Origin: Candidatus Levybacteria bacterium CG2_30_37_29
GTDB lineage: Bacteria; Patescibacteriota; Microgenomatia; Levybacterales; GWA1-39-11
Direction of reading: 5' to 3'
Assembly (NCBI GenBank): GCA_001873215.1
Contig: MNYS01000006.1
Location: 56,839-120,838, forward strand
Length of the DNA: 64,000 bases
Below the pieces are notes generated by a model. The model had not been told where the DNA came from and searched no databases. It worked only from the letters and a program-made list of their open reading frames with translations. Made by a program: the position numbers and the translations under genes. Of the stretch, positions 13,255 through 56,325 are shown in pieces. Every line of letters begins with the position of its first letter. The stretch's first letter is position 1.

Positions 13255-13338
13255 AAGTAAATATTATATAATCACTTTTGTGCGATTGCAATAAACAGAA
13301 AATATGTCCGGAACGAAGAATAAAGGAAGAATTGTGTT

Positions 13339-14688
13339 TTAGGTTTGACTATTTTTTTTGTGGCGTGCTTCCCAATCCCTGACTTGTTGAACACTAGGTG
13401 CTTTATACGTAAGTCTCTTCCCGTGCGTAGGACAGCTTGCTGCAACAAAGTGTTTATATCCTCCATTACCATCTTCAACGGTAAATTCTTTATATGAAAG
13501 TTTTGCCGGAAAACGGATATGTTCATCTTTACATTCAAAACACACATGTGCTGTGGGATGGGAAAAACCCGGTTCAAGCACAGCTTTTCTGACAGCCTCT
13601 TCTTCAATAGTTCCCATGCGAGATTTATAGGGCCCTTTGTTTTGCTCCCTTTTATATTGATGTTGTATTTGTCTTGAGGATTCGCCTTCTCCGACAAGAG
13701 CCGTGAATGAATCATGAAATGAAGATGTTCCGGTTTCATGTGCGCATTCCTTATCTCCGCAATGTTGTAAAATATCTTGACGTATATTTTTCTCTCTTCC
13801 TGAAATTCTAATTTTTGTACCACATGTAAATGTAATATCCCTGTCCAGTCCATTTAGAAGATCATATTTAAATCTTCTATAATCTTTGACCATCCGACTC
13901 AAAATTCTCGAATCATCGATTTCTTCAACATCAGGATTATCTTCCCGCAAAGCTCTGTTGCCTTCTTCCAAAAAAGCTAAATAATTTTTATGTTCATCAA
14001 TGGTTTCATCATTATCGATTTTTGCCCTACATTCTTCAACAATATCATTAGCCAATTTACCATCCTGTTCTGCTTCTTTTGGAATTCTGGCTTCCCAAAT
14101 CATTGGATTTTTGCTTGATCTTCCCGGCAGGACATTTACCTTAACAAAACCGGCCTCGACAAGCTTTTCCTTCCTTAATTCAACATTTCTGTCGTTTCCG
14201 CCTTCCTCATAACCAAATATGGCCCCGCATTTTTCCTCACCTATTCTTGCCTTATTCTTGTCTCTTTTAGGATCTTGTCTATTTAGAAGATCTCTATATA
14301 GACTAAATAGTCCTTCCGGAATTTTGTCCAGATCAATAGGGTGGTTGCTGACAAAAAAAATCGCTGCATATTTTCTTTCTCCCGGTTGATTTAGGTCAAA
14401 AAGATGTGCAATTTTCTTCAAGTTATCTCTTTCAAGGGAAGCGCCTACCGTAGGGTTACTTAAATCCACGACAAGAAATTCTCCATTTTTACCCTTGCCG
14501 GGAATTTGTTGCATAAGATGACGGGTGAAAAGCTCTTCCGGTATGTGCGGAAAAATAGTTGGGAAAAGTTCAATAGGGGAAGCGGGTCCTTTAGATTGCG
14601 GTTGTATTTCCTTTGCTGACATTCCTAAACTTTGTAGTGGTTTTTCGTCGTTCCCAAATTCTCCAATGGGCTCTCCTATTTCTGTCAT
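13339..14688 (-). CDS. hypothetical protein with C-terminal zinc-ribbon motifs
   Basis: 449 aa. HVCFECKDEH...CPTHG Cys/His cluster. Overlapping ORF 13272-13853 judged spurious. Confidence 0.55.
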   Translation of the reverse strand: MTEIGEPIGEFGNDEKPLQSLGMSAKEIQPQSKGPASPIELFPTIFPHIPEELFTRHLMQQIPGKGKNGEFLVVDLSNPTVGASLERDNLKKIAHLFDLNQPGERKYAAIFFVSNHPIDLDKIPEGLFSLYRDLLNRQDPKRDKNKARIGEEKCGAIFGYEEGGNDRNVELRKEKLVEAGFVKVNVLPGRSSKNPMIWEARIPKEAEQDGKLANDIVEECRAKIDNDETIDEHKNYLAFLEEGNRALREDNPDVEEIDDSRILSRMVKDYRRFKYDLLNGLDRDITFTCGTKIRISGREKNIRQDILQHCGDKECAHETGTSSFHDSFTALVGEGESSRQIQHQYKREQNKGPYKSRMGTIEEEAVRKAVLEPGFSHPTAHVCFECKDEHIRFPAKLSYKEFTVEDGNGGYKHFVAASCPTHGKRLTYKAPSVQQVRDWEARHKKNSQT

Positions 14689-15072
14689 AGTGAATATATT
14701 TTACCATAGCATGGATAGAGAGTGGTTGTTTTTTTCTTGCGTCTTTTAAAAAAGACGCCCAAAACTTCTTGTGAATGAAGCCGGACTATTTTTGTTCGTT
14801 CACTTGTCGGGTGATTTCACCCCTTCCTCGATCCTTCGGACGAGGAATCCCCCTGACGCGTTCACTCACAAAAACTTTACGTCCTAATGCTTCAATCGCA
14901 AGGAGAAAATATGCTGTGAAATGGTGAATTTTTGCAAGATTTTTCCAAGAAAAAACCGCCCTTTGGCAAAACCCGTGTGACGTTGAGGTCACAGGAAATC
15001 GTTTGGGGCGGTTTTTCAACCAAGGGTCACGGTGACATGAGCTTCTCCTTGCGAAGAGTGGTGGTGCCAGAG

Positions 15073-15399
15073 CTAGTCAGGAACGCCAAGACAGAGCTTG
15101 AAGTCCATTCTGGTTATTTCGAGCCTGATCCGCTCTGCGAGTTGTCGTAGATAGAACTGGTCGAGGTCAGTCGTCAGCACGACGGCGTATTCGAAAGGAC
15201 CTGCGACGGTCGTAGTCACTTCGGCGGTTTTTCCCATCATCGCACGGATTTCGTGTGCGACGGTGTTAGCCGTTCCCTTCGTGACTTCGAAGATGGCGTA
15301 TCCTCTCACCAAAGATCTCTTCGATCGGGCTTCGAGCTTCTGTGGAAGACTTCGTCGGTCCACCCGGTGTACACGAGGATTACCTCGTTTCGAATCCAT
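15073..15399 (-). CDS. small protein resembling the Lrp/AsnC C-terminal (RAM/ACT-like) domain, inside the high-GC island
   Basis: GYAIFEVTKGTANTVAHEIRAMMGKTAEVTTTVAGPFEYAVVLTTDLDQF follows a beta-alpha-beta-beta-alpha-beta pattern. GC-rich codon usage unlike its neighbours. Confidence 0.4.
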   Translation of the reverse strand: MDSKRGNPRVHRVDRRSLPQKLEARSKRSLVRGYAIFEVTKGTANTVAHEIRAMMGKTAEVTTTVAGPFEYAVVLTTDLDQFYLRQLAERIRLEITRMDFKLCLGVPD

Positions 15400-15421
15400 C
15401 TGGCGAGCCTTTTGATGCTCT

Positions 15422-15721
15422 TCATTTTAACTTCCGAACGGGCTCGGTCCATCGCTCGATACAATTTCGCGCGGCTTTGTCTTCATCGCGTGCGAAATCA
15501 AGATCTGCGAGGATCTGGTTGACGGTGGCGTGATCGCCCGATGCGTCCGCGAGCACAGATGCTTCTCGTAGCTTGTACTCGAGATCGGCAACGTTCTGTC
15601 GCGCTTCGGCAAGAGCTGTGAGAGCCGAGTAGGCTTCCTCCATTGCGAATGCTACCTGTAGCATCATTCGGGATATACCTCTCCTAGTGTTCGATTGACC
15701 TGACGGATGTCTGTCCGGCAA
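15422..15721 (-). CDS. hypothetical Ala/Arg-rich protein (island)
   Basis: 99-aa helical ORF in the high-GC segment. Overlapping ORFs occur on both strands, so frame choice is uncertain. Confidence 0.3.
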   Translation of the reverse strand: MPDRHPSGQSNTRRGISRMMLQVAFAMEEAYSALTALAEARQNVADLEYKLREASVLADASGDHATVNQILADLDFARDEDKAARNCIERWTEPVRKLK

Positions 15722-16263
15722 GCTTGTCTATGAAGCTCTGAATCCTGGTGTCATCACCTGTTAGAGTAATGGTTGCCACCGTAGGACCAAAGCTTTTTCT
15801 CTGGATTCTAACCCCATCCGGGATGTGTTTGTTGACCCAGCTTGCCACGCGGGTTTGGACGAAGGAGGTGTAATGCACCTTGACTTTCGTTGTCTTGGTA
15901 AACACCTTTCCTCCTACTTGCCGCTGCCGAATGTTTGGCTGTTACCGATCTTAACGCCGTTTGGCTTGCGCCTTGGTTTTGTCGGCGGTTCGACCTTGAC
16001 TCCAGGGATTCCTGGTTTTGTCGTTCGTACGAACCTTGATGGATTATTTGCCACGGAATTGTCCCTCTCCTGCCCGTTTGCTATGTGGGATCTGCGTAGA
16101 AGCGAGATGTGACTGCCGGTTGAGAGAAGGTACACCTCCCCCAAGTGCACTTAACAAAGAGCGTCTTACCATTTTGGAGCTGGACGATCGTGTTAAGCCT
16201 CTTGCACTTTGGGCAAATGGTTTTTTTCCTTTTATCTCTCTTGGCCACCGTGTTTCCCTCCAT

Positions 16264-16497
16264 TCAGACGGTAAGCGTAAGGATCCGTTCGACGGCAAGC
16301 ATGATGCTGCCGATGAAGCTTAAAGCTGCTCCCGCAATAAACGTTATAGCGAGATTCTCGATGACCCAAGGCTCCCAAGAAGGAGATCCTCGAATTGAGA
16401 CGAATCGTTTCAACGAATAAAAAGTAAGAGCTGTAAGTCCCACAAAAGCTCCTCCAATCGTTGAACCCCAAAGTCCCAATATGAATACGACGTGCAC
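16264..16497 (-). CDS. small two-TM membrane protein (island)
   Basis: 77 aa with two hydrophobic helices. Confidence 0.35.
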   Translation of the reverse strand: MHVVFILGLWGSTIGGAFVGLTALTFYSLKRFVSIRGSPSWEPWVIENLAITFIAGAALSFIGSIMLAVERILTLTV

Positions 16498-16507
16498 GAG
16501 TCCCTCC

Positions 16508-16897
16508 CTAATGGTGGTTTTTGTGATAGTGTCCGAGAGTGAGCAGTCCGATGAAGACGGTTCCGATGACGACGCCGGTTATGGCCCGATAGTCAGTGTG
16601 TACTCCATTTTTGTAGGCGTTGTCGATGAGGACAGCGCCGCACAGAAGTGTTAGTACGATAATGGTTCCAAGCCTGTCAAAATAATCCAAGTCTCCCTCC
16701 CTGCGGGGTTGAAAGGTGGTCGTTGACGAGATGCATTGGCTTCCCTTGCCAATCTGACTGTTGATGAATTCATGTCTAAAACACGCGGATTCGCAAATAT
16801 GCAAATTGTCATCTGCTGTCCACGCGTGTGTGACCCAAGTTGTCAAAGAACAAAGCCAAATCCCAAAGCAGGGAAGTGGTCTTGCAAATTGACACAA
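16508..16897 (-). CDS. small membrane protein (island), start uncertain
   Basis: C-terminal half has two TM helices and a His-rich tail. N-terminal part is doubtful. Confidence 0.3.
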   Translation of the reverse strand: MCQFARPLPCFGIWLCSLTTWVTHAWTADDNLHICESACFRHEFINSQIGKGSQCISSTTTFQPRREGDLDYFDRLGTIIVLTLLCGAVLIDNAYKNGVHTDYRAITGVVIGTVFIGLLTLGHYHKNHH

Positions 16898-17162
16898 TCC
16901 CTAAAGACGGATTTGGCGATATAGATGCGATTATAGCACTTTATTAACAAGGAATCAAAAAGACTATAAGATTGTATTTGAGGCTATTGGATCCCAGCTT
17001 CGAACATTATATAGCCTATAGATATTTACTATACACACCCGAGTTCAAGTATCTTTAATAGCTCATAGTGATTTATTACATTTGCAGAGGCTTATAGAGG
17101 TTAGTTGTGTTAAGTAAATCTATCCTCTTGTCAAAACAATCAATGAACGATACTATAAATAT

Positions 17163-35445: not shown

Positions 35446-36171
35446 ATGGATGAAAAGCGGCCAACAAAAAAAGAGCTGAAGGCGATGCGGAAATTGGCGC
35501 AATTGGAGGGTAAGACTCTTGAGCAAAAACAAAACATGGTGAAATGGATTGTGATTGGGATATCATCCGTTCTTTTTCTTGCATTTTTCACTGTCATTAT
35601 TATCGTTTCCAAACAAAAAGCTTCAGAGATAAAAATATCAACTTCGGGATGGGTACGAGGCGACCAAAACGCAAAAGTGACTCTTGTTGAGTTTTCAGAT
35701 TTGCAGTGTCCGGCTTGCAAAGCGTACCAGCCGGTTATTGAGCAGACTCTTAAAGATTTCAAAGGACGAGTGAAACTTCTTTACAAGCATTTCCCTCTAA
35801 GTCTTCACAAAAATTCTACAATTGCGGCAAAATCAGCAGAAGCTGCCGGCGCTCAGGGTAAATTTTTTGAAATGCACGATAAGCTTTTTGAAAAACAAGT
35901 AGATTGGTCTGGAATGGATGCATCAACAGTTGAAGCAACTTTTATTTCATACGCAAAAGAGTTAAATCTTGATATTGATAAATTCAAAAAAGATTTAAAT
36001 GACAAAACGTTTGAAGAAAAAATCAGATCCCAGGAAAATGAAGGGGCAGCGGTTGGGGTTAATTCTACGCCGACTTTTTACATCGGACGTGGAGAATCAT
36101 ACAAAAAAATAGAGGGCGCTTCACAGGTGTATTCCGAATTTAAAAAAGAAATTGAAAACGCTTTAAGGTAA
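35446..36171 (+). CDS. DsbA/BdbD-like thiol-disulfide oxidoreductase (thioredoxin fold)
   Basis: N-terminal TM anchor and CPAC active-site motif in the context VEFSDLQCPACKAY. Confidence 0.7.
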   Translation: MDEKRPTKKELKAMRKLAQLEGKTLEQKQNMVKWIVIGISSVLFLAFFTVIIIVSKQKASEIKISTSGWVRGDQNAKVTLVEFSDLQCPACKAYQPVIEQTLKDFKGRVKLLYKHFPLSLHKNSTIAAKSAEAAGAQGKFFEMHDKLFEKQVDWSGMDASTVEATFISYAKELNLDIDKFKKDLNDKTFEEKIRSQENEGAAVGVNSTPTFYIGRGESYKKIEGASQVYSEFKKEIENALR

Positions 36172-36177
36172 GAAGTA

Positions 36178-36705
36178 ATGAACTATCTAATTCAGCCTTT
36201 TGCAGGAATTATTGTTATAGTCGATATTTTAATCCTCGTATATCTTTTTTTATTTGTTTTATCTCTCAAAACAAAAAATGAAGCTCTGAAGAGCTTCTTT
36301 AATTTCATTTCCGGCAATTTTCTTTCTTTTGGTTTTTTAGTTTCGCTTTCTGCGACTCTTGGAAGTATATTTCTTTCCGAAGTTGCAAAATATCCCCCGT
36401 GTGAACTTTGCTGGATTCAGAGGGTTTTTATGTTCCCCCAAGCGGTTATTTTAGGAATCGGAATGGTAAAAAATGACATTTCAGCAAGACTTTATTCTGT
36501 GGTTTTGTCAACAATTGGTCTTTTGATTGCGGCTTATCACATTCTTGTACAGAACGGTCAGCTTCTTTCTCCGTGCTCAAATCAGTCAGTAAATTGTTCC
36601 GTAAAACAGTTTGTTTACTTTGGATATGTAACAATTCCTGTCATGTCAGCAACCGCTTTTGCCGTCCTTATTCTTCTGGCGCTTCCCGCGTTTAAACGGA
36701 AATAA
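36178..36705 (+). CDS. DsbB/BdbC-like disulfide bond formation membrane protein
   Basis: Four TM segments with Cys pairs CELC and C..NC in the loops. Located immediately downstream of the DsbA-like gene. Confidence 0.6.
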   Translation: MNYLIQPFAGIIVIVDILILVYLFLFVLSLKTKNEALKSFFNFISGNFLSFGFLVSLSATLGSIFLSEVAKYPPCELCWIQRVFMFPQAVILGIGMVKNDISARLYSVVLSTIGLLIAAYHILVQNGQLLSPCSNQSVNCSVKQFVYFGYVTIPVMSATAFAVLILLALPAFKRK

Positions 36706-46331: not shown

Positions 46332-47636
46332 ATGGTTGGTAACATCAAGGAAAACGGTATTCGCAACGGTGACCATTTAAAAGTTGCAAAAGACTCTCAT
46401 TTACCTTCCGAGTCCAGGCATAAATTTACAGGCGCCTGGCTTCCTTTTGAATCGATAAGTAGGCTTGAGCAGCCCCGTAGAACATTTGAGGAAATTCCTT
46501 CTCTTGCCGACAGTATTGCGGTTCATGGTGTTGCAAATCCGATTACCGTTGCCCAGCTTAGCGAAGAAGCGTGCGCCAGATATCTTGATGTAATAAATAA
46601 GGTCTGGGGGACAGTGCATGCATCAGCCGATCTTGAAACTCTTACTTTAGAAAGAGAGAAAAAATTTCATATTCTTATTGCGGGAGAAAGACGGTACCGG
46701 GCAATCGGTCTTTTGAAAGAACAAGGATGCGAAGACTGTCAGGCGGAGGAAATTGCAGAAACATGTTACGAAAATCATTTTGGGAGAAGTGAAGTGGAAG
46801 TAAGGCTTATGGTAAATGTTTCTGCCCGTGATGCGCTTGACCTTCAGTCCGCAGAAAATATTCACAAAAGGGTTCCGCCTCATGAAGATGCAAGGTTTTT
46901 GTATGAGTACTACAGATTTGTAAAAGAAGATGAGCCGGAGTGTACTTTAAGAGGTTTTGCTCGAGGAGTAAGTAGGGGAGAAGAACAAATAAGAGATGCA
47001 ATTAGGTTTTGCGAACTACCGGAAAACGTACAAGATTCTGTCAAGCTTGGTCAGATTTCTTATGGGATTGCAATTCAAATTTCACGGCTTCATAGACATT
47101 CAAATCCTAACGTCGCTGTTTCAAAAGAAGAGCTTGACTGGTGGGTTATTAAAGCGATAACAGGGCAATACAAAGTTCCTGATTTCAAAGAGTTGATTAC
47201 GGGATATATTAAGGAAAGAGAAGGGGGACAAAAAAGTATGTTTGAGATAATGACTGAGTCTCAAAGAAACGAATTTGAGCATGCTCAAAGAGAATTGGTT
47301 GTTGAAAAGGGAATTTTACGCGCTCTTCACGCTCAAATAGCGTATCTTCAAAGAGTTCAGGATCTATACAAAACAGGTAAGCTTGGAGAAAAGGATTCTC
47401 CATATTCTCAGGGCAGTCCGGGGAGATTGGTTTTAAAATTAGCTGAAGTTATGAGTCAAATTATTCCTGATCTAAAAGAGCACAAAGCGCTATCCAGGAA
47501 AAACCTTGCATTTGTAGATGAGGTTGTAAGTGACACAATGAAATTAGTTGAAAAAGCAGAAGCAGATACTGGAATTGTTTTGTCCGAAGGAAAACAAGAA
47601 GCTATTAATAGTGGCCAGACCGGTTTTTCCCTCTAA
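46332..47636 (+). CDS. ParB/Srx-like nuclease-domain protein (434 aa)
   Basis: HILIAGERRYRAIGLL matches the ParB N-terminal box II (GERRxRA) motif. Followed by a ~270-aa uncharacterised helical region. Confidence 0.55.
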   Translation: MVGNIKENGIRNGDHLKVAKDSHLPSESRHKFTGAWLPFESISRLEQPRRTFEEIPSLADSIAVHGVANPITVAQLSEEACARYLDVINKVWGTVHASADLETLTLEREKKFHILIAGERRYRAIGLLKEQGCEDCQAEEIAETCYENHFGRSEVEVRLMVNVSARDALDLQSAENIHKRVPPHEDARFLYEYYRFVKEDEPECTLRGFARGVSRGEEQIRDAIRFCELPENVQDSVKLGQISYGIAIQISRLHRHSNPNVAVSKEELDWWVIKAITGQYKVPDFKELITGYIKEREGGQKSMFEIMTESQRNEFEHAQRELVVEKGILRALHAQIAYLQRVQDLYKTGKLGEKDSPYSQGSPGRLVLKLAEVMSQIIPDLKEHKALSRKNLAFVDEVVSDTMKLVEKAEADTGIVLSEGKQEAINSGQTGFSL

Positions 47637-48795: not shown

Positions 48796-50361
48796 TTATC
48801 TGTCAAACGCTGAGTAGGAGAGGTTGAAGCTTTTATTGATTAACGGAAAATCGGGTACGATATTGCCAACAACTGCATATGGTACTGCCGACCAGTTGAG
48901 AAATGATGCATCTCTGACCCCAACACGGCTTATCTCTCCCTTACTATCAGTTGCTACAAAATAGAGGATATCGCCTCTCCATCCTTCGGTAATTCCTATT
49001 GCATATGCATTTTTTTCAAGTTTTTTAGCTGTTTTATTTAAGATATTTCCTTTAGGCATTTTTTTCAAAGCTTGAAAAATGATATCAATTGAACTATAAA
49101 TTTCACTAATTCTTACTTGAAAGCGGGCATGTACATCACCGGTTGACTGACTTGCAATTTTCATATTTATTTCCGAATATGCGGCATATGGGTATTCACT
49201 ACGTGCATCACGTGGAAGTCCTACGGCGCGAGCAGCAATGCCAACAACTCCGTGATCGGTAGCTATTTGTTTGTCTATTTTTCCTGTTCCCTTTAATCTG
49301 TTAAGTACCGATTCGCTGTCTTCAATAACTGCTATTACTTCTTCAAAATCCTTTTTCATTTTTTGTAGTTCATATTCTAATGTTGTTTGCATTTCTTTTG
49401 AAATATCTTTAGTGATTCCACCTATTGTGTTTACACCTCTTAAAAATCTACTTCCCGTCAAAAGTTCACACAATTGCATAATTTTTTCTCTGAGTCTTGG
49501 TCCATTTCCACCAAAGCTAAACCCGGTGTCGCTAATAATAAAACCAACATCATTAAAGTGATTCGCAAGTCTCTCAAGTTCGGAATAAATAACTCTTATG
49601 TATTTTGCGCGAGAAGAAATTATTGTGTTGCTCAACGTCTCAACTGCTTGGCAATAAGAAAGGGAATGTGTAAAAGATGTATCTCCGGAAATTCTTTCTG
49701 AAAGTCGAATTTTATCATCGAAAGGGAGCTCTTCAAATAATTTTTCACTTCCTTTGTGTGTGTATCCAAATTTCGGTTCAAGTGACACAATTTCTTCGCC
49801 TGCAACGCTAAATCTAAAATGACCCGGCTCGATAATTCCTGCGTGAACAGGGCCAACCGGAATTTCGTAAATTCCCTCACCGTCAACTTTTTGAAATTCA
49901 TAAGGTGTTGCGGCTGTTGCCGGCCTTTTTTGGAAATGAAAGTCCTTTCGTAATGGATAAATATCTGCGGGCCAATTATTATGAACTAGAAATGGTCGAA
50001 TTTGGGGGTGACCTACCGGAGTCAGACCAAAGAATGATTTTATCTCCAACTCATATAGCGATGCTTGATAGATAAATGGAGCAAGAGATGGAAATTCATT
50101 TGCGTCTCTTATTAAAAGGTAAGGCACTATAAAAAATTCAGATCCGGGGATTCCAAAGATATAAAATATTTTATATCCTCCATTTTCGGCTCTTTCATCT
50201 GTCGCTTTAATTGCCTTAAGTAACAATTGATGTTTGTCACGAAGATTAAGACATGTATCAATGATGGAATCTGTTGCAACGTGAAATAAAATAAGGTTAT
50301 TATTTTTTTCAATTATAGTATCCTTGTCTAAGTACTTATTAACAATTTCTGTATATGTCAT
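48796..50361 (-). CDS. fused NuoC/NuoD-like subunit ([NiFe]-hydrogenase large-subunit homolog lacking Ni-binding cysteines)
   Basis: NuoC block F.GHP, then GPVHAGIIEPGHFRF and GYTHKGSEK (NuoD/HycE family). Positions of the RxCGxC and DPCxxC motifs read SGDT and NLSYS. Confidence 0.75.
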   Translation of the reverse strand: MTYTEIVNKYLDKDTIIEKNNNLILFHVATDSIIDTCLNLRDKHQLLLKAIKATDERAENGGYKIFYIFGIPGSEFFIVPYLLIRDANEFPSLAPFIYQASLYELEIKSFFGLTPVGHPQIRPFLVHNNWPADIYPLRKDFHFQKRPATAATPYEFQKVDGEGIYEIPVGPVHAGIIEPGHFRFSVAGEEIVSLEPKFGYTHKGSEKLFEELPFDDKIRLSERISGDTSFTHSLSYCQAVETLSNTIISSRAKYIRVIYSELERLANHFNDVGFIISDTGFSFGGNGPRLREKIMQLCELLTGSRFLRGVNTIGGITKDISKEMQTTLEYELQKMKKDFEEVIAVIEDSESVLNRLKGTGKIDKQIATDHGVVGIAARAVGLPRDARSEYPYAAYSEINMKIASQSTGDVHARFQVRISEIYSSIDIIFQALKKMPKGNILNKTAKKLEKNAYAIGITEGWRGDILYFVATDSKGEISRVGVRDASFLNWSAVPYAVVGNIVPDFPLINKSFNLSYSAFDR

Positions 50362-50382
50362 AAATTTAAAAATATTTTATTA

Positions 50383-51831
50383 TTAATTGCCGAGAAACAT
50401 TGTGTAACTTTCGTTTAGTAACTTTTGTAGGGGGGTGGGTAAATATACGCTAAAAACAAACAGGATTATTGCAAGGCCTATTATAGGTACGATTGTCCAA
50501 TTATTATTTTCTCCTTTTTGGATTTTTTTGGGTGGTTCACCAAATAACATTTCGATTATATGCTTGAAAAAGCCTAAAAATACAAGGACTAGAGAGAACA
50601 ATGCAATAAGCGCAATAAGTGGCGAATGATGAAACCCTGCAAATAATATATAAAATTCCGTGAAGAAAATACCAAATGGTGGAATACCTACCATTGTCAG
50701 AAAACCAATGATATATAAAACGCTACTGTATGGCAATACTTTTACCATGCCTGTTACGTCAGTAATTCTTGAAGAACTATATTTTACCGCAATATTGCTG
50801 GACACGAAGAAAAGCAATGATTTTGCAAATGAATGATATACCATATGTAGGATTGCACCAAAAATTCCAATTCCTCCAAATCCAAAACCAAGCATCATAA
50901 TGCCCGCGTGTTCAGTGCTATGATATGCAAGCATTCGTTTATAATTTTTTTGTGTATAAATAATAAAAGCCGCAATGACAATTGAGAGAATCCCAAAAAA
51001 GACAAAGAGATTTTGTGAAAAAGAACTACCAGCTACAATGTCAACAATGAGTTTAAAACGTAAAATTGCAAGAAAAGCAACATTAAGAAGTGCTCCGGAT
51101 AACAAGGCGGCAATTGGTGATGGTGCCTTATTGTATGCATCAGGTCTCCAAGTATGCATAGGAACGAGTCCCATTTTCGTTCCGTATCCGATAAGTACAA
51201 ATACAAAAGCAAACTTGCTGATTAAGGGATTCATATGAGTAGCTGAAGCTATAAGATTATTCCAATTGAAAAAACCATTAAAAGTTGATCCTTGTGACAA
51301 AAATAAAGTAGTTCCCAAAAGTCCCAGAAGTAGTCCAATAGAATTGATAATCAGGTATTTCCAAGCAGCTTCGATGTCTGCCTTTCTATTAAAAAAGCTT
51401 ATGAGAAAAACCGTTGAGAGTGTTGTTGCTTCAATGGATATCCACATAATTATTGGATTTGTTATCGTGATTGCAACATACATGCAAAGTAAAAATAAAT
51501 TCATAAGAATATAATATTCTTTTATTCGCCTAAATCCGATCATTCCTTTTGCTTGTTCACATCTTAAATATCCTACAGAATGAAGTGTTGCAACAAATCC
51601 TACAGTAACTGTTATCCCTAGAATAAGCGCTTCAAATGCGCGTACCGAAAAAGTATCGCTTATTAAATATGCGTTTTGGCTTAAAACAGTGTAGATTATT
51701 GATAGAATAGCAATTATTTGTGTTCCTACCGAAGCTATAGCTATTTTTTCAAGCATGCTTCTTTGTTTATTTACAACGATAGACGCGAGTATTGCGATAA
51801 TTGGTGAAATGAATAGTAAAAGTAATAACAT
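50383..51831 (-). CDS. NuoM/NuoN/MrpD-like proton-translocating antiporter subunit
   Basis: 482 aa, ~14 TM. WRPDAYNKAPSPIAALLSGALLNVA matches the conserved antiporter-module motif. Confidence 0.7.
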   Translation of the reverse strand: MLLLLLFISPIIAILASIVVNKQRSMLEKIAIASVGTQIIAILSIIYTVLSQNAYLISDTFSVRAFEALILGITVTVGFVATLHSVGYLRCEQAKGMIGFRRIKEYYILMNLFLLCMYVAITITNPIIMWISIEATTLSTVFLISFFNRKADIEAAWKYLIINSIGLLLGLLGTTLFLSQGSTFNGFFNWNNLIASATHMNPLISKFAFVFVLIGYGTKMGLVPMHTWRPDAYNKAPSPIAALLSGALLNVAFLAILRFKLIVDIVAGSSFSQNLFVFFGILSIVIAAFIIYTQKNYKRMLAYHSTEHAGIMMLGFGFGGIGIFGAILHMVYHSFAKSLLFFVSSNIAVKYSSSRITDVTGMVKVLPYSSVLYIIGFLTMVGIPPFGIFFTEFYILFAGFHHSPLIALIALFSLVLVFLGFFKHIIEMLFGEPPKKIQKGENNNWTIVPIIGLAIILFVFSVYLPTPLQKLLNESYTMFLGN

Positions 51832-51832
51832 A

Positions 51833-52474
51833 TTATTTTTTAAGTTCCCTTAATTGTGTTACGTCAATTGATCCGAAGTGTTTGATTATAGTTCTGACAA
51901 AAATACTTGAAATAATTATCCAGAAAAATACATCAAAAAGCATGCTTATCTCTAAGGCAGCAGATTGTTGTAAACCCAAAAAATATCCAAAAGTAAAAAT
52001 ACAATTCTCCAAAGACAATATGCCGATTATTTGAGAAATAGCTCCTTTTCTATTGATAGTAAAAAATATAGACATTAGCATACCCCCAATTAGTAGAACT
52101 CTAAGTAGTGGAGTTAACGCTGTAAATGGTGAGAAAACATCCGATTGCGCAAAAATACTTAATATAACCAAACATCCGAGTGTCATCGGTACATTCAAAT
52201 ATGTAGTGGCCGATATGTTGGCTTTGTGTTGCTTAATAATACGCAGAAGCAACTGTGGTGCAATTATTACTTTTATGATCAATAAAATTATTGTTACGAT
52301 TCCTATCTCAAATGACATCTCATGGTAGGATTTAATACCCATTATGGCAACAAGCATGAGGGATTGAATAAGATAAGCAAAAATAAGAATGGTATTTTTT
52401 TTTGCAATATTCATCACTACAATACATAGAAAAATAACAAGAGCAAATAGCTGTAGTTGAAAAATTATATTCAT
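51833..52474 (-). CDS. small polytopic membrane subunit of the complex (unassigned)
   Basis: 213 aa, about six TM. Stop and start abut the flanking subunits. Confidence 0.45.
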   Translation of the reverse strand: MNIIFQLQLFALVIFLCIVVMNIAKKNTILIFAYLIQSLMLVAIMGIKSYHEMSFEIGIVTIILLIIKVIIAPQLLLRIIKQHKANISATTYLNVPMTLGCLVILSIFAQSDVFSPFTALTPLLRVLLIGGMLMSIFFTINRKGAISQIIGILSLENCIFTFGYFLGLQQSAALEISMLFDVFFWIIISSIFVRTIIKHFGSIDVTQLRELKK

Positions 52475-52475
52475 A

Positions 52476-53420
52476 TTAAATAGTGACTGTAATGAGTGAT
52501 ATTACGCAAAAAATAAATCCGGTTAGCAATAGGTCGGGAAGTCGGAACAATCTAAGTTTTGCCATGCTTGATTCAAGAATAGCAACCCCGACAATTAGTG
52601 TTGTTGCTTTTACGATGACTAGTATGAATGGAAAAAGTAATGAAGAGAGATTGGCAGTTGTTGAAAGTCCCCAGGGAAAAAATAAATTGACTCCAAGTAT
52701 TATAAAAAAAATAAATTTATTTGCATTAGCCCATTCTATAAGTGCCAGTCTTTTACCTGAATATTCCAAGATCATTGCTTCATGAATCATCGTCAGCTCC
52801 AGATGGGTTGATGGATTGTCAAACGGAATGCGTCCGGTTTCTGCCATAAGTGCGATAAAAAAGCCCATAAAGGCGATGACAAATGGCAAATAGTTAAAGA
52901 ACGGTAGACCTGAAGCAGTTGTTGCCATAAGTATTACGTTTGTAGTGTGTGTGACCAGGGCAATTGGCAGGAAAGAGAAAAGCAAAGTCCCTTCGGTAAG
53001 AGCTGCAATTGTCATTTCGCGGCTTGATCCAAAACCTCCGAATGCGCTACCTACATCAAGACCGCTTAACGCAATAAAAAAAGTCATTGTTGCCAATAAA
53101 TAAATAGTAATAATAAAGTCTCCGAAAAATGAAAGAGATTCGATGCTTCCCAAAAGCGGAATTCCGAGCGGAAGAAGAATACTCAATCCAAACAGCAAGA
53201 AGGGTGTCAGGTAGAATATCCACGATGCGTCTCTGGCTATTACTTCATCTTTGTGAAAAAGTTTCCATAAATCATAATAGGGTTGGAAAATTCCTGCTCC
53301 GCGTCGATTTTGCATATAAGCCTTTACTTTTCTGACAATTCCAACACACAGAGGGGAGAGTGTGGGAAGCAAAATAAGTTTTAGAATAATAATAAAAATG
53401 CTCATATTAATATCTGGCAA
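52476..53420 (-). CDS. NuoH/HycD-like membrane subunit
   Basis: GRIPFDNPSTHLELTMIHEAMILEYSG matches the NuoH/HycD conserved loop (R.PFD..E.E.EL..G...EYSG). Confidence 0.7.
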   Translation of the reverse strand: MPDINMSIFIIILKLILLPTLSPLCVGIVRKVKAYMQNRRGAGIFQPYYDLWKLFHKDEVIARDASWIFYLTPFLLFGLSILLPLGIPLLGSIESLSFFGDFIITIYLLATMTFFIALSGLDVGSAFGGFGSSREMTIAALTEGTLLFSFLPIALVTHTTNVILMATTASGLPFFNYLPFVIAFMGFFIALMAETGRIPFDNPSTHLELTMIHEAMILEYSGKRLALIEWANANKFIFFIILGVNLFFPWGLSTTANLSSLLFPFILVIVKATTLIVGVAILESSMAKLRLFRLPDLLLTGFIFCVISLITVTI

Positions 53421-55434
53421 AAATTAACAGACCAAGCAGTAAAATAAATATATATAACAAATATTGATTAACATTTCCGCTTTGTATTTTCCTTATTTGT
53501 TTTGAAATAATACTCAAGCCATTGTGTAGAGGGTAGTATAAATATGCCTCATAAATATTGACAATTCCCAAAGTTACTGTTTTTGATTTTGAGAAATAGC
53601 GTATATCTGCATCGACATATTCTATTTCATGTTGTTTTGATGGTTGGAAAATTCCTCTAAAAATAAGTATTAGTGTTCTTGAAAACCCCGTTGCAGTTAT
53701 TTCCATTTTGGGGCTTAGTGCATTAAATCCACAATCCCAAACTGTGCGTAGAACCACCTTTTGTTTTCTACTGACAATATATACAAGTCCAAAAGAAAGG
53801 GCTATGAAAACTGCCATAACCAAGAAAATAACTGGCATATTTAGATGTGCAACGTTCTGATTTACTTGAAGAGAAATGCCTGTTGATGAAAGTGATGAAG
53901 TTTTACTTGAAAATAGTGACAGGTTTTTAACAATTAGTTGTATATTTGTTATAACAAAAAAAGAAAATACTCCAAGGGTCAGACATAAAACAGCCAGTGT
54001 TCCCATGCTTATTAATAGTAAAGGTGATACCTCTGTTGCTTTTTCACTTTCTATGCTTCGACTTCTTGCAAGAAATGTAATACCAAATGCTTTTACAAAA
54101 CATGCTGCAGCAAGCCCTCCGGTAAATGTGAGACAAGCCGCTCCAAAAATGAAAATACTTTTTATTAATATAGAAGAGGTTGCAATACCACTGAAGAGGC
54201 TTTGGAACGTGAGCCATTCGCTGACAAATCCATTAAATGGGGGTAGACCTGAAATTGCAACAGCGCCTACTAAAAAGAATATAGCAGTATATGGCATCAG
54301 CTTTATGAGTCCTCCATATTCTTCAATATTACGGGTATGAGTTTGAGAGATTACAGAACCTGCGCCCAAAAAAAGCAACGATTTAAATACGGCATGATTT
54401 AGTGTGTGAAATAGCCCGGCGGTAATTGCAAGCATTGCAAGAGAGGGCTGTTTTAATGCAATAAAGATCAGTCCGCTTCCAAGTCCCAAAAGTATAATTC
54501 CAATGTTTTCTATGCTGTGGTATGCAAGAAGTCTTTTAATGTCATGTTCCGATAGGGCGTACAAAACTCCAAGAATTGAAGAAACAGCTCCGATAATAAG
54601 AACAACATACCCGAGCCACAGTGGAGTTTGAGGAAGAATATCCAAAAACATTTTAAAAAGCATAAATATTCCTATTTTTATCATAACTCCGGACATAAGG
54701 GATGAAACATGAGATGGAGCTGCACTATGTGCCCATGGAAGCCAAATGTGAAAAGGAACAATTCCTGCTTTGGTTCCAAATCCAATAATCATACAAAGAA
54801 AAATTATAGTTTGAATAACGAATGGAATTGATGCGAAATGTTGCTTTATTGTTTCAAAATCGAAAGATCCGGTAAATTGAAAAAGAAGCAAGAAACTTAA
54901 AAGAATAAATGCGGTTGCCGCGTGAGTCATTATAAAGTAGATAAATCCTGATTTTATGATTTGAAGTTTTTTATTCTCAAATATAACCAAAAATAGTGAG
55001 CTTAGAGACATTATTTCCCAAACAAAAAGAAAATACAAAGCATTATGTGCGGTTATCACCAGAAGAAGACTTATGAGAAATATATTGTAGAAAAATCCAA
55101 AAACCCCTAAATTATATTCTTTTGCATATTGTTTCATATATCCAATCCCGTACAGTGATGCGGGTAGGGCTATAAGCGATACGATTAAAATAAAAAAAGC
55201 GGCAAGAGGATCTATGTGCAAGGAGATATTGAACATTGGGAATGAAGTGGGTAAAGTGGTTGTAAGGGTTGATTGTGTAATTAATGCTCCTATTGAGAAA
55301 ATTAGCGCAAGTAATGAGCCAAACATAGAAAACACACTACTGACATAAGAAAGTTTGGTATCTCTCTGGACAATAAGAGAAATTATTGAGCCTCCCGTAA
55401 GCACCAAAAGCGATGTAAAAAATAAATTCTGCAT
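53407..55434 (-). CDS. NuoL/MrpA/HyfB-like antiporter subunit
   Basis: 675 aa, more than 16 TM. WLPWAHSAAPSHVSSLMSGVMIKIG antiporter motif. Confidence 0.7.
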   Translation of the reverse strand: MQNLFFTSLLVLTGGSIISLIVQRDTKLSYVSSVFSMFGSLLALIFSIGALITQSTLTTTLPTSFPMFNISLHIDPLAAFFILIVSLIALPASLYGIGYMKQYAKEYNLGVFGFFYNIFLISLLLVITAHNALYFLFVWEIMSLSSLFLVIFENKKLQIIKSGFIYFIMTHAATAFILLSFLLLFQFTGSFDFETIKQHFASIPFVIQTIIFLCMIIGFGTKAGIVPFHIWLPWAHSAAPSHVSSLMSGVMIKIGIFMLFKMFLDILPQTPLWLGYVVLIIGAVSSILGVLYALSEHDIKRLLAYHSIENIGIILLGLGSGLIFIALKQPSLAMLAITAGLFHTLNHAVFKSLLFLGAGSVISQTHTRNIEEYGGLIKLMPYTAIFFLVGAVAISGLPPFNGFVSEWLTFQSLFSGIATSSILIKSIFIFGAACLTFTGGLAAACFVKAFGITFLARSRSIESEKATEVSPLLLISMGTLAVLCLTLGVFSFFVITNIQLIVKNLSLFSSKTSSLSSTGISLQVNQNVAHLNMPVIFLVMAVFIALSFGLVYIVSRKQKVVLRTVWDCGFNALSPKMEITATGFSRTLILIFRGIFQPSKQHEIEYVDADIRYFSKSKTVTLGIVNIYEAYLYYPLHNGLSIISKQIRKIQSGNVNQYLLYIFILLLGLLIFARY

Positions 55435-55440
55435 AATAAA

Positions 55441-55980
55441 TTATTGCTTTTTCTGATCTGATTTATCATCAATAATGTTAAGTATATATAATAATGAAGA
55501 AAGAATGGTCATGGCTGAAGGGGGGTCCCCAGGGATTTGAAAATTGACTGGAATGACATTATGAACGCCATCAAGTACAGCATAAGATCCTTTAAATATT
55601 CCTCCATCAATTGCATCATCGCCAACAGCAACAACTATTTTAGGGTCAGGAGTTGCCTCATAAGTTTTTTTCAAAGCCTCTGCCATATTTCGTGATACGG
55701 GTCCTGTTACCATTAACATGTCAGCGTGTCTCGGGGATGCGACAAAGTGAATTCCAAATCTTTCAATATCATAATATGTGTTTGTTAAAGCCATAAGTTC
55801 CTGTTCGCATGCATTTGTTGAGCCTGTATCTACTTCTCGGATTGCAAGGGATCCGCCAAACAGCTTTTTTATTTTTTTCTCGATGCCTTTTTGAACAATA
55901 GTAACGTCATTTTGCTGATTTATTATTTTTCTTGGAACGAGTGTTAAAGGAACTGATAATATTTTTGAATAAAGTGACAT
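55441..55980 (-). CDS. NuoB/hydrogenase small-subunit homolog lacking [4Fe-4S] cysteine ligands
   Basis: HADMLMVTGPVS...PDPKIVVAVGDDAIDGG...IPGDPP aligns with NuoB ADLMVVAG...PEPRYVISMGSCANGGG...IPGCPP, but three of the four cluster cysteines are replaced (one Cys remains in ACEQE). Confidence 0.7.
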   Translation of the reverse strand: MSLYSKILSVPLTLVPRKIINQQNDVTIVQKGIEKKIKKLFGGSLAIREVDTGSTNACEQELMALTNTYYDIERFGIHFVASPRHADMLMVTGPVSRNMAEALKKTYEATPDPKIVVAVGDDAIDGGIFKGSYAVLDGVHNVIPVNFQIPGDPPSAMTILSSLLYILNIIDDKSDQKKQ

Positions 55981-56325
55981 AATATTTGTTTACATGAAAA
56001 AAAATTCCTCTGCTTCGTAGCTGTAAAAGGAATTCTTAAATATCTGACTATGGCAGTATATTATATTTCAATGAGCTTAAATTATCAAGGAAAATTATCC
56101 TTGATAATTCTGGCTTGAATTTTCAGCTTACTTCTGCTAGAATACAAATTAGATCCAGAGACAATAAGTTCTGCCAGCTGGCGGATTAAACAAGAAAGCT
56201 TATCGAGGAAACGTTCAGTTTAAAATTAAAAGTTTAAAGTGAAAAGTTGAAGCGTCTTTGGGAAGGCGCTTTTTTATTGGTTTTAAACTAATAACTAACG
56301 ACTAATAACTTTTAGCTAATAGATT

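What the first reader, a model, noticed from the sequence alone, without database searches (positions are those of the whole stretch)
48796..55980. Six-gene operon for a hydrogenase-/complex-I-related membrane complex whose catalytic subunits have lost their metal ligands
Directly visible: tightly packed minus-strand genes with overlapping or abutting stops and starts. They encode a NuoB-like protein, two large antiporter-like subunits (NuoL/MrpA-like and NuoM/MrpD-like), a NuoH/HycD-like subunit, a small membrane subunit, and a fused NuoC-NuoD-like protein. The NuoB homolog aligns closely with canonical NuoB (ADLMV..G / PDPKIVVAVG / IPGDPP). However, the CCxxE...GSC...IPGCPP cysteines that hold the N2 [4Fe-4S] cluster read ACEQE...GDD...IPGDPP. 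The large subunit has GPVHAGIIEPGHFRF and GYTHKGSEK, but SGDT and NLSYS where [NiFe] hydrogenases carry RxCGxC and DPCxxC. No NuoI-, NuoE/F/G- or Hyp-like genes are present. From established knowledge, this gene set with cysteine-less B/D subunits corresponds to 'energy-converting hydrogenase-related' (Ehr) / Mrp-Mbx-type modules, which are thought to couple ion translocation without H2 chemistry. Inference: in a genome that otherwise looks like a minimal fermentative symbiont with no respiratory chain, this is an unexpected ion-translocating module, possibly an Na+/H+ antiporter or membrane-potential-coupled redox device. It sits between dprA and rplJL.
Basis: partly seen in the sequence, partly recalled or inferred. 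Interest (0 to 1): 0.8.

Follow-up and report, generated by a model that had tools for sequence, protein, structure and literature searches.

The report
Cofactor-free hydrogenase-like membrane complex (Ehr)
A tiny symbiotic bacterium carries a six-gene relative of respiratory complex I and membrane hydrogenases that has lost every metal-binding site for electron transfer but keeps an intact, strongly conserved proton-moving machinery, and in related genomes it often sits beside the ATP synthase genes.

Summary
Window 48796-55980 (minus strand) is a tight six-gene operon, EhrS(NuoB-like)-EhrA(HyfB/NuoL-like)-EhrB(NuoH/HyfC-like)-EhrC(HyfE/NuoK-like)-EhrD(HyfF/NuoM-like)-EhrL(NuoC-NuoD/HyfG-like), in a Candidatus Levybacteria (CPR) genome. 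All four [NiFe] cysteines and three of the four [4Fe-4S] cysteines are replaced.

The Ehr assignment is right. However, a CPR-specific Ehr clade lacking the NiFe cysteines is already published (Jaffe 2020).

Findings I did not see in the searchable literature:
1. Loss of the small-subunit cluster is specific to this clade. About 130 other Ehr loci keep CCCC. All 120 closest EhrS homologs lack at least 3 of the 4 cysteines, and 14 have no cysteine at all.
2. The clade is monophyletic and nested in cluster-retaining Ehr.
3. Nothing else changed. The membrane Lys/Glu/His residues are invariant, and EhrS and EhrL are the most conserved subunits.
4. No ferredoxin-type or other redox partner recurs nearby.
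5. F1Fo ATP synthase genes are the only recurrent neighbour: 9 of 23 loci, against about 0.4 expected by chance and 0 of 106 other loci.

Best reading: a redox-independent proton or cation translocator that shares an ion circuit with the ATPase. I rate it a new variant of a known kind.

The parts
55441..55980 (-). EhrS: NuoB/HycG/MbhJ-like small subunit (179 aa) without the [4Fe-4S] site. The ligand positions read T55, C58, D122, D152.
   Evidence: Pfam Oxidored_q6 at 9e-25 and NCBIfam NuoB. PDB alignments to MbhJ, HycG and NDUFS7. Ligand survey across homologs.
53407..55434 (-). EhrA: HyfB/HycC/NuoL-like antiporter-like subunit (675 aa). It has E140, K222, H229, K253, H343, H347, K351 and E406.
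   Evidence: NCBIfam hydrogenase-4 subunit B scores 672.8 bits, above the 667 cut-off. HycC 3e-79 and MbhH 2e-58. The listed residues are invariant across clades.
52476..53420 (-). EhrB: NuoH/HycD/MbhM-like subunit. The ORF is 314 aa from a TTG start; the probable start is the ATG at 53405, giving 309 aa. The acidic TM5-6 loop and channel residues are retained: R134, E135, E143, E194, D201, E208, E214, E219, E283, K288, R290.
   Evidence: Pfam NADHdh at 6e-44. HycD at 1e-46. Residues are invariant across clades. Gene callers place the start at 309 aa.
51833..52474 (-). EhrC: HyfE-like membrane subunit (213 aa). Its C-terminal half is MrpC/NuoK/MbhG-like, with invariant membrane residues E156, K68 and Q148.
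   Evidence: NCBIfam hydrogenase-4 membrane subunit (HyfE) at 3e-15. A profile search hits MbhG at 8e-4 and MbsG at 0.012. Invariant columns. A weak Oxidored_q2 hit on a homolog.
50383..51831 (-). EhrD: HyfF/NuoM/N-like antiporter-like subunit (482 aa). It has E134, K219, H226, H333, K337 and E392. The TM8 position is Asn, which is a family-wide trait.
   Evidence: NCBIfam hydrogenase-4 subunit F at 4e-123. MbsH' and MbhH alignments. Residue conservation.
48796..50361 (-). EhrL: fused NuoC-NuoD/HycE/HyfG-like large subunit (521 aa) without the NiFe cysteines (S225, T228, S515, A518). It keeps the hydrogenase-type beta1-beta2 loop GPVHAGIIEPGHFRF, including E178.
   Evidence: Pfam Complex1_30kDa plus Complex1_49kDa. 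HycE at 1.9e-80, with alignment. Motif comparison across clades.
56060..56088 (-). Best sigma-70-like promoter match (TTGATA-17-TATAAT, 11 of 12), about 80 nt upstream of the EhrS start codon. It lies in the intergenic region shared divergently with rplJ.
   Evidence: Consensus scan and sequence. This is a pattern match only.

Best explanation
This is a redox-cofactor-free member of the Ehr family. The membrane arm consists of two antiporter-like subunits, a NuoH-like subunit and a NuoK-like HyfE subunit. A peripheral cap (EhrS plus EhrL) sits on the NuoH-like subunit.

The cap can no longer bind the NiFe centre or the [4Fe-4S] cluster, and there is no ferredoxin-like subunit. Electron transfer and H2 chemistry are therefore excluded.

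The complex most likely still moves protons, or exchanges protons for another cation, through the conserved Lys/Glu/His chain. The cap would then act as a non-catalytic coupling or gating element at the junction with the NuoH-like subunit.

The complex probably works in the same ion circuit as the F1Fo ATPase. In a fermentative CPR cell with no respiratory chain, the ATPase builds the proton gradient by hydrolysing ATP. The Ehr module then uses or converts that gradient, for example for cation/pH homeostasis or to power an unknown non-redox event at the conserved EhrL pocket.

Shown: gene content, ligand loss, conservation pattern, clade specificity and synteny with atp genes.

Inferred: absence of any cofactor, direction of ion flow, the ion species, and the functional link to the ATPase.
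For: Ligand loss:
- Shown by alignment to solved structures.
- All 120 closest EhrS clusters lack at least 3 of the 4 cysteines, and 14 have no cysteine at all.
- The replacements vary across deeper relatives (TCDD, SEGD, DAAD, DVES, SAES, DADN and others), so there is no conserved alternative ligand set.

No partner:
- No CxxCxxCxxxC ORF lies in or next to any CPR-type operon.
- No redox genes lie near the operon in the window.

Membrane machinery intact:
- Every canonical charged residue of EhrA, EhrD and EhrB is invariant in the CPR-type clade, as in cluster-retaining Ehr and true hydrogenases.
- The NuoK-type Glu of EhrC is invariant.

Not decaying:
- Within the clade, EhrS (62% mean pairwise identity) and EhrL (57%) are the most conserved subunits.
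- All ORFs are full length.

Only the ligand positions differ:
- The only systematic differences from cluster-retaining Ehr are the ligand positions plus one proline.

Synteny:
- atp genes are the only recurrent neighbours.
- They are adjacent or within 2.8 kb in 9 of 23 CPR-type loci, against 0.42 expected (binomial 1.5e-10) and 0 of 106 other Ehr or hydrogenase loci (Fisher 4e-8).
- Gaps are as short as 32-64 bp from atpC to ehrS and 48 bp from ehrL to atpC.
- The one adjacent c-subunit available lacks Ser/Thr after the carboxylate. From my own knowledge of Na+ c-rings, that suggests H+ coupling.
Against: - The window's own operon is not next to atp genes; it sits between rplJL and dprA. 14 of 23 loci lack the linkage.
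- The linkage statistic is not corrected for shared ancestry of synteny.
- If the cap were only a plug, it is odd that it is the most conserved part of the complex. That points to a specific activity I cannot name.
- The MrpB/E/F/G-type subunits thought to carry Na+ in Mrp and MBH are absent, which weakens a simple Na+/H+ antiporter reading.
- There is no expression, proteomic or biochemical evidence.
- The structure prediction of EhrS was unusable (pLDDT 48).
- A non-CPR autotroph (Ca. Scalindua) also carries the operon, so the role is not tied to a fermentative symbiont lifestyle.
Confidence: 0.45

Rival explanations
1. Chemically driven proton pump. An exergonic non-redox reaction or ligand-binding cycle in the conserved former NiFe pocket (motifs ERISGD..H and NLSYSGxD, with the E178 loop) drives proton export through the membrane arm. 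This would supply the neighbouring F1Fo ATP synthase with a proton gradient in cells that have no respiratory chain.
For: - The EhrL pocket motifs and the beta1-beta2 loop are as conserved as in cluster-retaining Ehr.
- EhrS and EhrL are the most conserved subunits.
- Synteny with the atp operon.
- From my own knowledge, non-redox chemistry coupled to antiporter-like subunits has precedents: DabAB carbon-concentrating pumps and CupA on cyanobacterial NDH-1.
Against: No substrate, catalytic metal site or partner enzyme can be named. Synteny does not give the direction of coupling. Nothing in the sequence identifies a catalytic residue set.
Confidence: 0.2
2. Still a redox enzyme. Electrons would enter through an unconventional cofactor held by the Asp/Glu/Cys residues that replaced the cluster ligands, or through a separately encoded partner.
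For: - One Cys (C58) is retained in about 80% of close homologs. Positions D121, D122, D125 and D152 are conserved and form an acidic cluster.
- From my own knowledge, Asp can serve as a single Fe-S ligand in some proteins.
Against: - 14 of 120 close homologs have no cysteine at all, and C58 is Glu, Ala, Val or Ile in other members.
- There is no NuoI/HycF-type subunit and no recurrent redox neighbour.
- The NiFe site is absent.
- The quinone-ligating His and Tyr of complex I (own knowledge of T. thermophilus Nqo4 H38/Y87) correspond here to Glu178 and Gly226 (alignment).
Confidence: 0.07
3. Regulatory or accessory device of the ATP synthase or of membrane energisation. Examples would be a gradient sensor or a controlled proton leak that adjusts pmf or cytoplasmic pH, as opposed to a transporter doing net work.
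For: - atpC (the regulatory epsilon subunit) is the immediate neighbour in 7 loci.
- The replacement residues keep 2-3 negative charges where the cluster sat. This could freeze the coupling site in one electrostatic state (inference).
Against: atpC is simply the last gene of the atp operon, so its proximity carries no specific information. A six-subunit complex of about 2,400 residues is a costly regulator for a roughly 1 Mb genome.
Confidence: 0.13
4. Non-functional relic of a hydrogenase or Ehr on its way to being lost.
For: Loss of all cofactor ligands.
Against: - All six ORFs are intact, and the same is true in every locus examined.
- 57-62% mean identity for the cap subunits across phylum-level CPR lineages, with functional residues invariant.
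- Thousands of members.
- Retained in roughly 1 Mb genomes.
Confidence: 0.02

Closest known systems
Ehr (energy-converting / Ech-hydrogenase-related) complexes, e.g. Geobacter sulfurreducens EhrA-D, EhrL, EhrS; also Nitrospira, Margulisbacteria and Saganbacteria
   Same: - The same six-subunit set: NuoL-like, NuoH-like, HyfE-like, NuoM-like, large and small subunits (PMC7894505).
- The large subunit lacks the CxxC NiFe motifs (PMC6349859, PMC10284858).
- The pocket motifs ERISGD..H and NLSYSGxD are shared.
- Function is unknown in all of them.
   Different: - The small subunit has lost 3 of the 4 [4Fe-4S] cysteines. About 130 other Ehr loci keep CCCC.
- Frequent synteny with the F1Fo atp operon, never seen in the other Ehr loci.
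- The other Ehr loci are flanked instead by sigma-54 activators, ArsR-type regulators and sometimes SulP.
CPR-specific Ehr clade of Jaffe et al. 2020 (BMC Biol 18:69, PMC7304191)
   Same: Almost certainly the same clade. It is described as monophyletic and CPR-dominated, with large subunits lacking the metal-binding cysteines, and it was judged unable to interact with H2.
   Different: That paper treats only the large subunit. It does not mention the Ehr small subunit's cluster ligands, the membrane subunits, proton translocation or ATP synthase.
E. coli formate hydrogenlyase complexes: FHL-1 (Hyc, PDB 7Z0S) and FHL-2 (Hyf, hydrogenase-4)
   Same: - Best sequence matches among solved structures: HycE 1.9e-80, HycC 3e-79, HycD 1e-46, HycG 5e-27.
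- The HyfB model scores above NCBIfam's cut-off.
- HyfE- and HyfF-like subunits are present.
- Hydrogenase-type Glu in the beta1-beta2 loop.
   Different: No NiFe site and no small-subunit cluster. No HycF/HyfH, HycB/HyfA, FdhF, HyfD or Hyp maturases.
Pyrococcus MBH (6CFW) and MBS/Mbx (6U8Y)
   Same: Peripheral B/D-type cap on a NuoH-like subunit, plus antiporter-like and MrpC/NuoK-like subunits. MBS is a precedent for a hydrogenase descendant that changed its chemistry.
   Different: MBH and MBS keep three [4Fe-4S] clusters, including a NuoI-like subunit, and carry the Mrp-type Na+ module (MrpB/E/F/G-like subunits). None of these is present here.
Respiratory complex I (Nuo/Nqo)
   Same: Homologs of NuoB, C, D, H, L, M/N and K. 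The same chain of membrane Lys/Glu/His residues.
   Different: No N2 cluster. No NuoI or NuoE/F/G. No separate NuoA or NuoJ. The quinone-ligating His and Tyr positions are Glu and Gly (alignment; residue identities from my own knowledge).
Mrp Na+/H+ antiporter
   Same: A redox-independent machine built from MrpA/D-type antiporter-like subunits and an MrpC/NuoK-like subunit.
   Different: Lacks MrpB, E, F and G. Has a NuoH-like subunit and a soluble B/CD cap, which Mrp does not have.

Membership tests
Group 4 [NiFe]-hydrogenase | Large-subunit L1 (RxCGxC) and L2 (DPCxxC) cysteines that ligate the NiFe centre | tested here: not met
   The motifs read RISGDT and NLSYSA against HycE RVCGIC and DPCYSC. 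The same holds in the whole clade.
Group 4 [NiFe]-hydrogenase | Small subunit with four Cys ligating the proximal [4Fe-4S] cluster | tested here: not met
   The ligand positions read T55, C58, D122, D152. 120 of 120 close homologs lack at least 3 Cys.
Group 4 [NiFe]-hydrogenase | Hyp maturation genes in the genome | tested here: inconclusive
   None was found in the roughly 60 kb of the window that carries Pfam annotation. The rest of the genome is not available.
Ehr complex | Homologs of group 4 large and small subunits in which the large subunit lacks the NiFe ligands | tested here: met
   Definition taken from PMC6349859 and PMC10284858.
Ehr complex | Operon with NuoH-like, HyfE-like and two antiporter-like membrane subunits | tested here: met
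   The same set is named EhrA-D in Geobacter (PMC7894505).
Ehr complex | Phylogenetic placement of the large subunit within Ehr sequences | tested here: met
   In a neighbour-joining tree of CD subunits rooted on true hydrogenases, the clade is nested in Ehr, next to the Nitrospira and Rokubacteria groups. No bootstrap was run.
Ehr complex (typical form) | Small subunit retains the four-Cys cluster motif | tested here: not met
   CCCC is found in every non-CPR-type Ehr locus examined and is lost only in this clade.
Respiratory complex I | N2 cluster in NuoB, the quinone-binding His/Tyr in NuoD, plus NuoI and the NADH module | tested here: not met
   No NuoI/E/F/G genes are present.
Mrp antiporter | Seven-subunit MrpA-G set, including MrpB/E/F/G | tested here: not met
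   All six genes are assigned to other families. There are no MnhB, MNHE, MrpF or PhaG Pfam hits.
MBH/MBS (Mbx) | NuoI-like two-cluster subunit and the Mrp-type Na+ module | tested here: not met
   No ferredoxin-motif ORF. The operon has only six genes.
Functional proton or cation translocator of the complex I superfamily | TM5 Glu, TM7 Lys, TM8 Lys/His, TM11 Lys and TM12 Lys/Glu in the antiporter-like subunits; acidic residues in the NuoH-like and NuoK-like subunits | tested here: met
   Actual transport cannot be tested with these tools.

The most novel reading that the evidence does not exclude
Two linked readings remain open.

1. The Ehr family as a whole may not be a redox enzyme. The CPR-type clade lost the only Fe-S cluster with no other systematic change at any constrained position. 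Even cluster-retaining Ehr operons have no ferredoxin-like subunit or recurrent redox partner. Ehr could therefore be a proton-motive machine coupled to a non-redox event in the former NiFe pocket.

2. In CPR bacteria this machine, encoded next to the ATP synthase, may be the missing generator or principal user of membrane potential in cells with no respiratory chain.

A related detail: the 2-3 carboxylates that replace the cluster may mimic its negative charge.
Probability: 0.2. Interest if true: 0.85.

Novelty: new variant of a known kind. Interest (0 to 1): 0.6.

Why it matters
Complex I, membrane hydrogenases and Mrp antiporters share one ion-translocating core. How chemistry at the cap is coupled to ion movement is still debated. 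A naturally cofactor-free version, small (six subunits) and under strong purifying selection, would be a clean system for separating the coupling machinery from redox chemistry.

For CPR biology it bears on an open question: how cells with an ATP synthase but no respiratory chain manage their membrane potential. The synteny with atp genes makes that link testable.

For the Ehr family, whose function has stayed unknown since its first description about 20 years ago, the finding shows that the small-subunit cluster is dispensable. That constrains hypotheses such as the proposed formate dehydrogenase-Ehr complex.

Tried and rejected
- The single-sequence scan of genome contigs found nothing because the peptide patterns were too specific. 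Repeating it with an alignment worked.
- The metagenome scan added only about 10 CPR-type loci.
- AlphaFold2 of EhrS with a 33-sequence alignment gave pLDDT 48. I did not use it, and I ran no fold search.
- I did not predict EhrL or the complex, because only single chains can be modelled and coordinates are not returned.
- The Ehr-defining paper (Marreiros et al. 2013) is not held. I could not check what it says about small-subunit cysteines.
- Literature searches for CPR or Patescibacteria with NuoB, Ehr, antiporter or ATP synthase found no report of the small-subunit cluster loss or of the atp linkage. The library lacks most subscription journals.
- I considered and rejected a frameshift or sequencing error hiding the cysteines, because the protein is identical on many contigs and the clade agrees.
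- I rejected pseudogenisation on the conservation pattern. The apparent disruption of the NuoH-like gene in L168 was a gene-calling artefact.
- I rejected a conserved alternative metal site, because the replacements vary.
- I rejected Mbx/Mrp identity, because the required subunits are missing.
- A search for recurrent neighbours other than atp in CPR-type loci found none.

Full report
**1. What is in the sequence**

The region 48796-55980 holds six minus-strand ORFs separated by 1-21 nt. Pfam and NCBIfam assign them as follows:
- a NuoB/Oxidored_q6 protein (179 aa);
- a HyfB-type antiporter-like subunit (675 aa). The NCBIfam 'hydrogenase 4 subunit B' model scores 672.8 bits, above its cut-off of 667;
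- a NuoH/NADHdh subunit;
- a HyfE-type membrane subunit (NCBIfam 3e-15, no Pfam hit);
- a HyfF-type antiporter-like subunit (482 aa);
- a fused NuoC-NuoD protein (521 aa).

In the Geobacter nomenclature (PMC7894505) this order reads EhrS-EhrA-EhrB-EhrC-EhrD-EhrL. A profile of the HyfE-like protein matches MbhG and MbsG, the MrpC/NuoK family, over its C-terminal half (E = 8e-4). Its membrane Glu (E156) is invariant.

The best sigma-70-like match in the region (TTGATA-17-TATAAT) lies about 80 nt upstream of the first gene. The flanking genes are dprA and rplJ/rplL.

The proteins are 100% identical to those of a Candidatus Levybacteria MAG (CG_4_10_14_0_2_um_filter) and occur on more than 20 independently assembled contigs.

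**2. The metal ligands**

Aligned to MbhJ, HycG and mitochondrial NDUFS7, the four cysteines of the [4Fe-4S] cluster read T55, C58, D122 and D152. Aligned to HycE, RVCGIC reads RISGDT and DPCYSC reads NLSYSA.

Aligned to T. thermophilus Nqo4, the His and Tyr that bind quinone in complex I (identities from my own knowledge) correspond to E178 and G226. The pocket is hydrogenase-like and not quinone-reductase-like.

No ferredoxin-type (NuoI/HycF/HyfH), NuoE/F/G or Hyp gene occurs in the roughly 60 kb of the window for which precomputed Pfam hits are available.

**3. What was already known**

Jaffe et al. 2020 (PMC7304191) reported that CPR large-subunit sequences form a monophyletic subclade of Ehr. 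They noted that these sequences lack the metal-binding cysteines and 'likely cannot interact with H2'. Ehr complexes in Margulisbacteria, Saganbacteria, Nitrospira and Geobacter are described as NiFe-less relatives of group 4 hydrogenases of unknown function.

The core of the finding is therefore a known kind of system, and its presence in CPR is not new. That paper does not discuss the Ehr small subunit, the membrane subunits, proton translocation or ATP synthase. My searches found no paper that does. The limits of that statement: the library lacks most subscription journals, and the Ehr-defining paper could not be read.

**4. Loss of the small-subunit cluster is clade-specific**

I collected loci encoding relatives of the large subunit: 80 from GTDB species genomes, 80 from metagenomes, and several long contigs. 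For each I reconstructed the operon and tabulated the ligand positions. Three groups emerge:
- (a) True hydrogenases (6 loci) have CCCC in both subunits.
- (b) About 130 Ehr loci from Nitrospirota, Rokubacteria, Acidobacteria, Verrucomicrobia, Firmicutes, Thaumarchaeota and others lack the NiFe cysteines but keep all four cluster cysteines in the small subunit.
- (c) The window and about 27 other loci lack both.

Group (c) is labelled mostly as CPR lineages (Levy-, Davies-, Magasanik-, Falkow-, Saccharibacteria). It also includes MAGs labelled Firestonebacteria, Thermoleophilia, Fibrobacteria, Endomicrobiales and Bdellovibrionales, and a 4.15 Mb Ca. Scalindua contig.

In a neighbour-joining tree of the large subunit rooted on the hydrogenases, group (c) is a single clade nested inside group (b). 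It sits next to the Nitrospira and Rokubacteria groups, some of which share the small-subunit-first gene order (no support values). This fits one ancestral loss.

All 120 closest 90%-identity clusters of the small subunit (69-100% identical) lack at least three ligands: TCDD in 96, then SEGD, TEDD and others. Fourteen contain no cysteine at all. Among 50%-identity representatives the replacements are more varied still (DAAD, DVES, SAES, DADN, ECED, DVDD and others). There is thus no conserved alternative ligand set.

The four former ligand positions carry two or three Asp/Glu in 147 of 153 Cys-less proteins. Glu at position 58 and an acidic residue at position 122 are nearly mutually exclusive (not corrected for phylogeny). 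One possible reading, which is inference only, is that the negative charge of the lost cluster is preserved.

**5. Everything else is intact**

The canonical charged residues are all invariant in the CPR-type clade, exactly as in cluster-retaining Ehr and in true hydrogenases:
- EhrA: E140, K222, H229, K253, H343, H347, K351, E406.
- EhrD: E134, K219, H226, H333, K337. The TM12 position E392 is the one exception, split about evenly between Glu and Lys in the CPR-type clade; both occur at TM12 in known antiporter-like subunits.
- EhrB (NuoH-like): R134, E135, E143, E194, D201, E208, E214, E219, E283, K288, R290.

The Asn at the TM8 position of the HyfF-like subunit is a trait of the whole family, not a defect of this clade.

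Within the clade, mean pairwise identity is highest for the two peripheral subunits: EhrS 62% and EhrL 57%. The membrane subunits range from 43% to 55%.

A search for positions that differ systematically between the CPR-type clade and all other Ehr or hydrogenase sequences found only three ligand cysteines and one proline in EhrS, and nothing in EhrL. A search for positions newly constrained in the CPR-type clade found almost nothing in any subunit. The pocket motifs ERISGD..H and NLSYSGxD and the GPVHAGIIEPGHFRF loop are shared by both kinds of Ehr.

The complex is therefore 'Ehr minus its only Fe-S cluster', kept under strong purifying selection. It is not a decaying relic.

**6. Partners and neighbours**

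No ORF with a ferredoxin-type cysteine motif lies in or next to any CPR-type operon. Only four of the other Ehr or hydrogenase loci have one between the large and small subunit genes.

Clustering of flanking ORFs in the CPR-type loci gave only three recurrent families. Pfam identifies them as ATP synthase gamma, beta (and alpha), and epsilon. The arrangements are:
- atp genes directly upstream on the same strand in L005, L015, L076, L093, L116 and L169. Gaps from atpC to ehrS are 32-1110 bp, and 32 and 64 bp in L093 and L169;
- atpC directly downstream in L167 (48 bp gap);
- atpB starting 828 bp downstream of the operon in L094, followed by atpE-F-H-A-G;
- rearranged but nearby in L006.

Sources.

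That makes 9 of 23 CPR-type loci with at least 2 kb of flank. About 0.42 would be expected for a 1 Mb genome (binomial 1.5e-10), and 0 of 106 other loci show it (Fisher 4e-8).

Caveats:
- Inherited synteny inflates these numbers, although the linkage is seen in both deep subclades.
- The window itself, and a close relative, have the rplJL/dprA context instead.

The one c-subunit within reach (L094) has Ala-Leu after the ion-binding Glu. From my own knowledge of Na+-binding c-rings, that suggests proton coupling.

Cluster-retaining Ehr loci are flanked instead by sigma-54 activators (23 loci), ArsR-type regulators (13 loci) and SulP transporters (4 loci). I found no recurrent formate dehydrogenase, NuoE/F or ferredoxin genes.

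**7. How it most likely works**

What is shown:
- there are no ligand sets for NiFe or for a cubane cluster;
- there is no electron-wire subunit;
- the proton-translocation and E-channel residue sets are complete and invariant;
- the cap is under the strongest constraint;
- there is a genomic association with the F1Fo ATPase.

What I infer: the complex is a redox-independent ion translocator. The cap serves as the coupling or gating element on the NuoH-like subunit. The complex operates in the ion circuit set up by the ATPase, which in a fermentative CPR cell is expected to run as an ATP-driven proton pump. I put this at about 0.45.

I cannot decide whether the complex exchanges protons for another cation, uses the gradient to drive an unknown event in the conserved pocket, or runs the other way and generates a gradient from a non-redox reaction (rival, about 0.2). 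The high conservation of the cap argues for a specific activity there. The absence of MrpB/E/F/G-type subunits argues against a plain Mrp-like Na+/H+ antiporter. A residual redox function (about 0.07) and a relic (about 0.02) are unlikely for the reasons above.

**8. Comparison and novelty**

[quoted passage not shown] It is a member of the Ehr family by gene content, ligand state of the large subunit and tree position. It fails the membership tests for group 4 hydrogenases, complex I, Mrp and MBH/MBS. It departs from typical Ehr in one defining respect, the small-subunit cluster, and in its association with atp genes. I therefore rate it a new variant of a known kind.

The most novel reading not excluded is that the Fe-S cluster is dispensable for the conserved function of all Ehr complexes, so that Ehr is not a redox enzyme at all. 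In that case the CPR version would be a central part of membrane energisation in cells without a respiratory chain (probability about 0.2).

**9. Limits**

- There is no biochemical or expression evidence.
- The tree has no support values.
- The taxonomic labels of some MAGs may reflect mis-binning. The Scalindua case lies on a 4.15 Mb contig and looks genuine.
- The structure prediction failed.
- The rest of the Levybacteria genome, including its own atp genes, could not be inspected.

Noticed in passing
window 35446-36705 (+): An adjacent DsbA-like thioredoxin (241 aa) and DsbB (175 aa) pair. From my own knowledge, DsbB normally passes electrons to quinones, which CPR bacteria are thought not to make. 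Its electron acceptor here is unclear.
   Followed up: partly
window ~13300-17100: A stretch with raised G+C (0.43-0.47 against about 0.37 elsewhere). It contains only unannotated ORFs, including a 449 aa protein with no Pfam hit, and about 1.5 kb with no called gene. There is no Rfam match at E <= 0.01 and there are no significant repeats. It may be foreign or mobile DNA.
   Followed up: partly
L170 7993-17239 (Ca. Scalindua, 4.15 Mb contig): A complete CPR-type, Cys-less Ehr operon in an anammox planctomycete, with a SulP-family transporter ending 26 bp upstream on the same strand. SulP genes also flank four cluster-retaining Ehr loci, for example L103. This hints at a link to anion or bicarbonate transport.
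   Followed up: partly
L034, L074, L105, L129, L153 (Nitrospirota and others); L012 (Fibrobacteria-labelled MAG): Two Ehr-type operons in tandem on one contig. In L012 a CPR-type operon is followed by a second, more distant Hyf/Ehr-like operon.
   Followed up: no
cluster-retaining Ehr loci, e.g. L103 1686-3044 and L038 4034-4396: Sigma-54-dependent response regulators (NtrC type) flank 23 cluster-retaining Ehr loci. A small ArsR-type HTH gene sits directly upstream in 13 loci, mainly in the Rokubacteria-type small-subunit-first group. This suggests regulated, condition-specific expression.
   Followed up: partly
L007, L008, L013, L014 (MAGs labelled Firestonebacteria, Thermoleophilia, Endomicrobiales, Bdellovibrionales): These carry the CPR-type operon at 50-57% large-subunit identity to the window. 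This reflects either lateral transfer out of CPR or mis-binned contigs. Their G+C ranges from 34% to 57%.
   Followed up: no
L076, L116 (deep CPR-type subclade): No separate HyfE-like ORF was detected, and the NuoH-like ORF is unusually long (about 530-580 aa). This may be a NuoH-HyfE fusion.
   Followed up: no
window 46332-47636 (+): A 434 aa protein with only weak ParB_N and ParB HTH matches, immediately upstream of dprA. It is an atypically long ParB-like protein.
   Followed up: no
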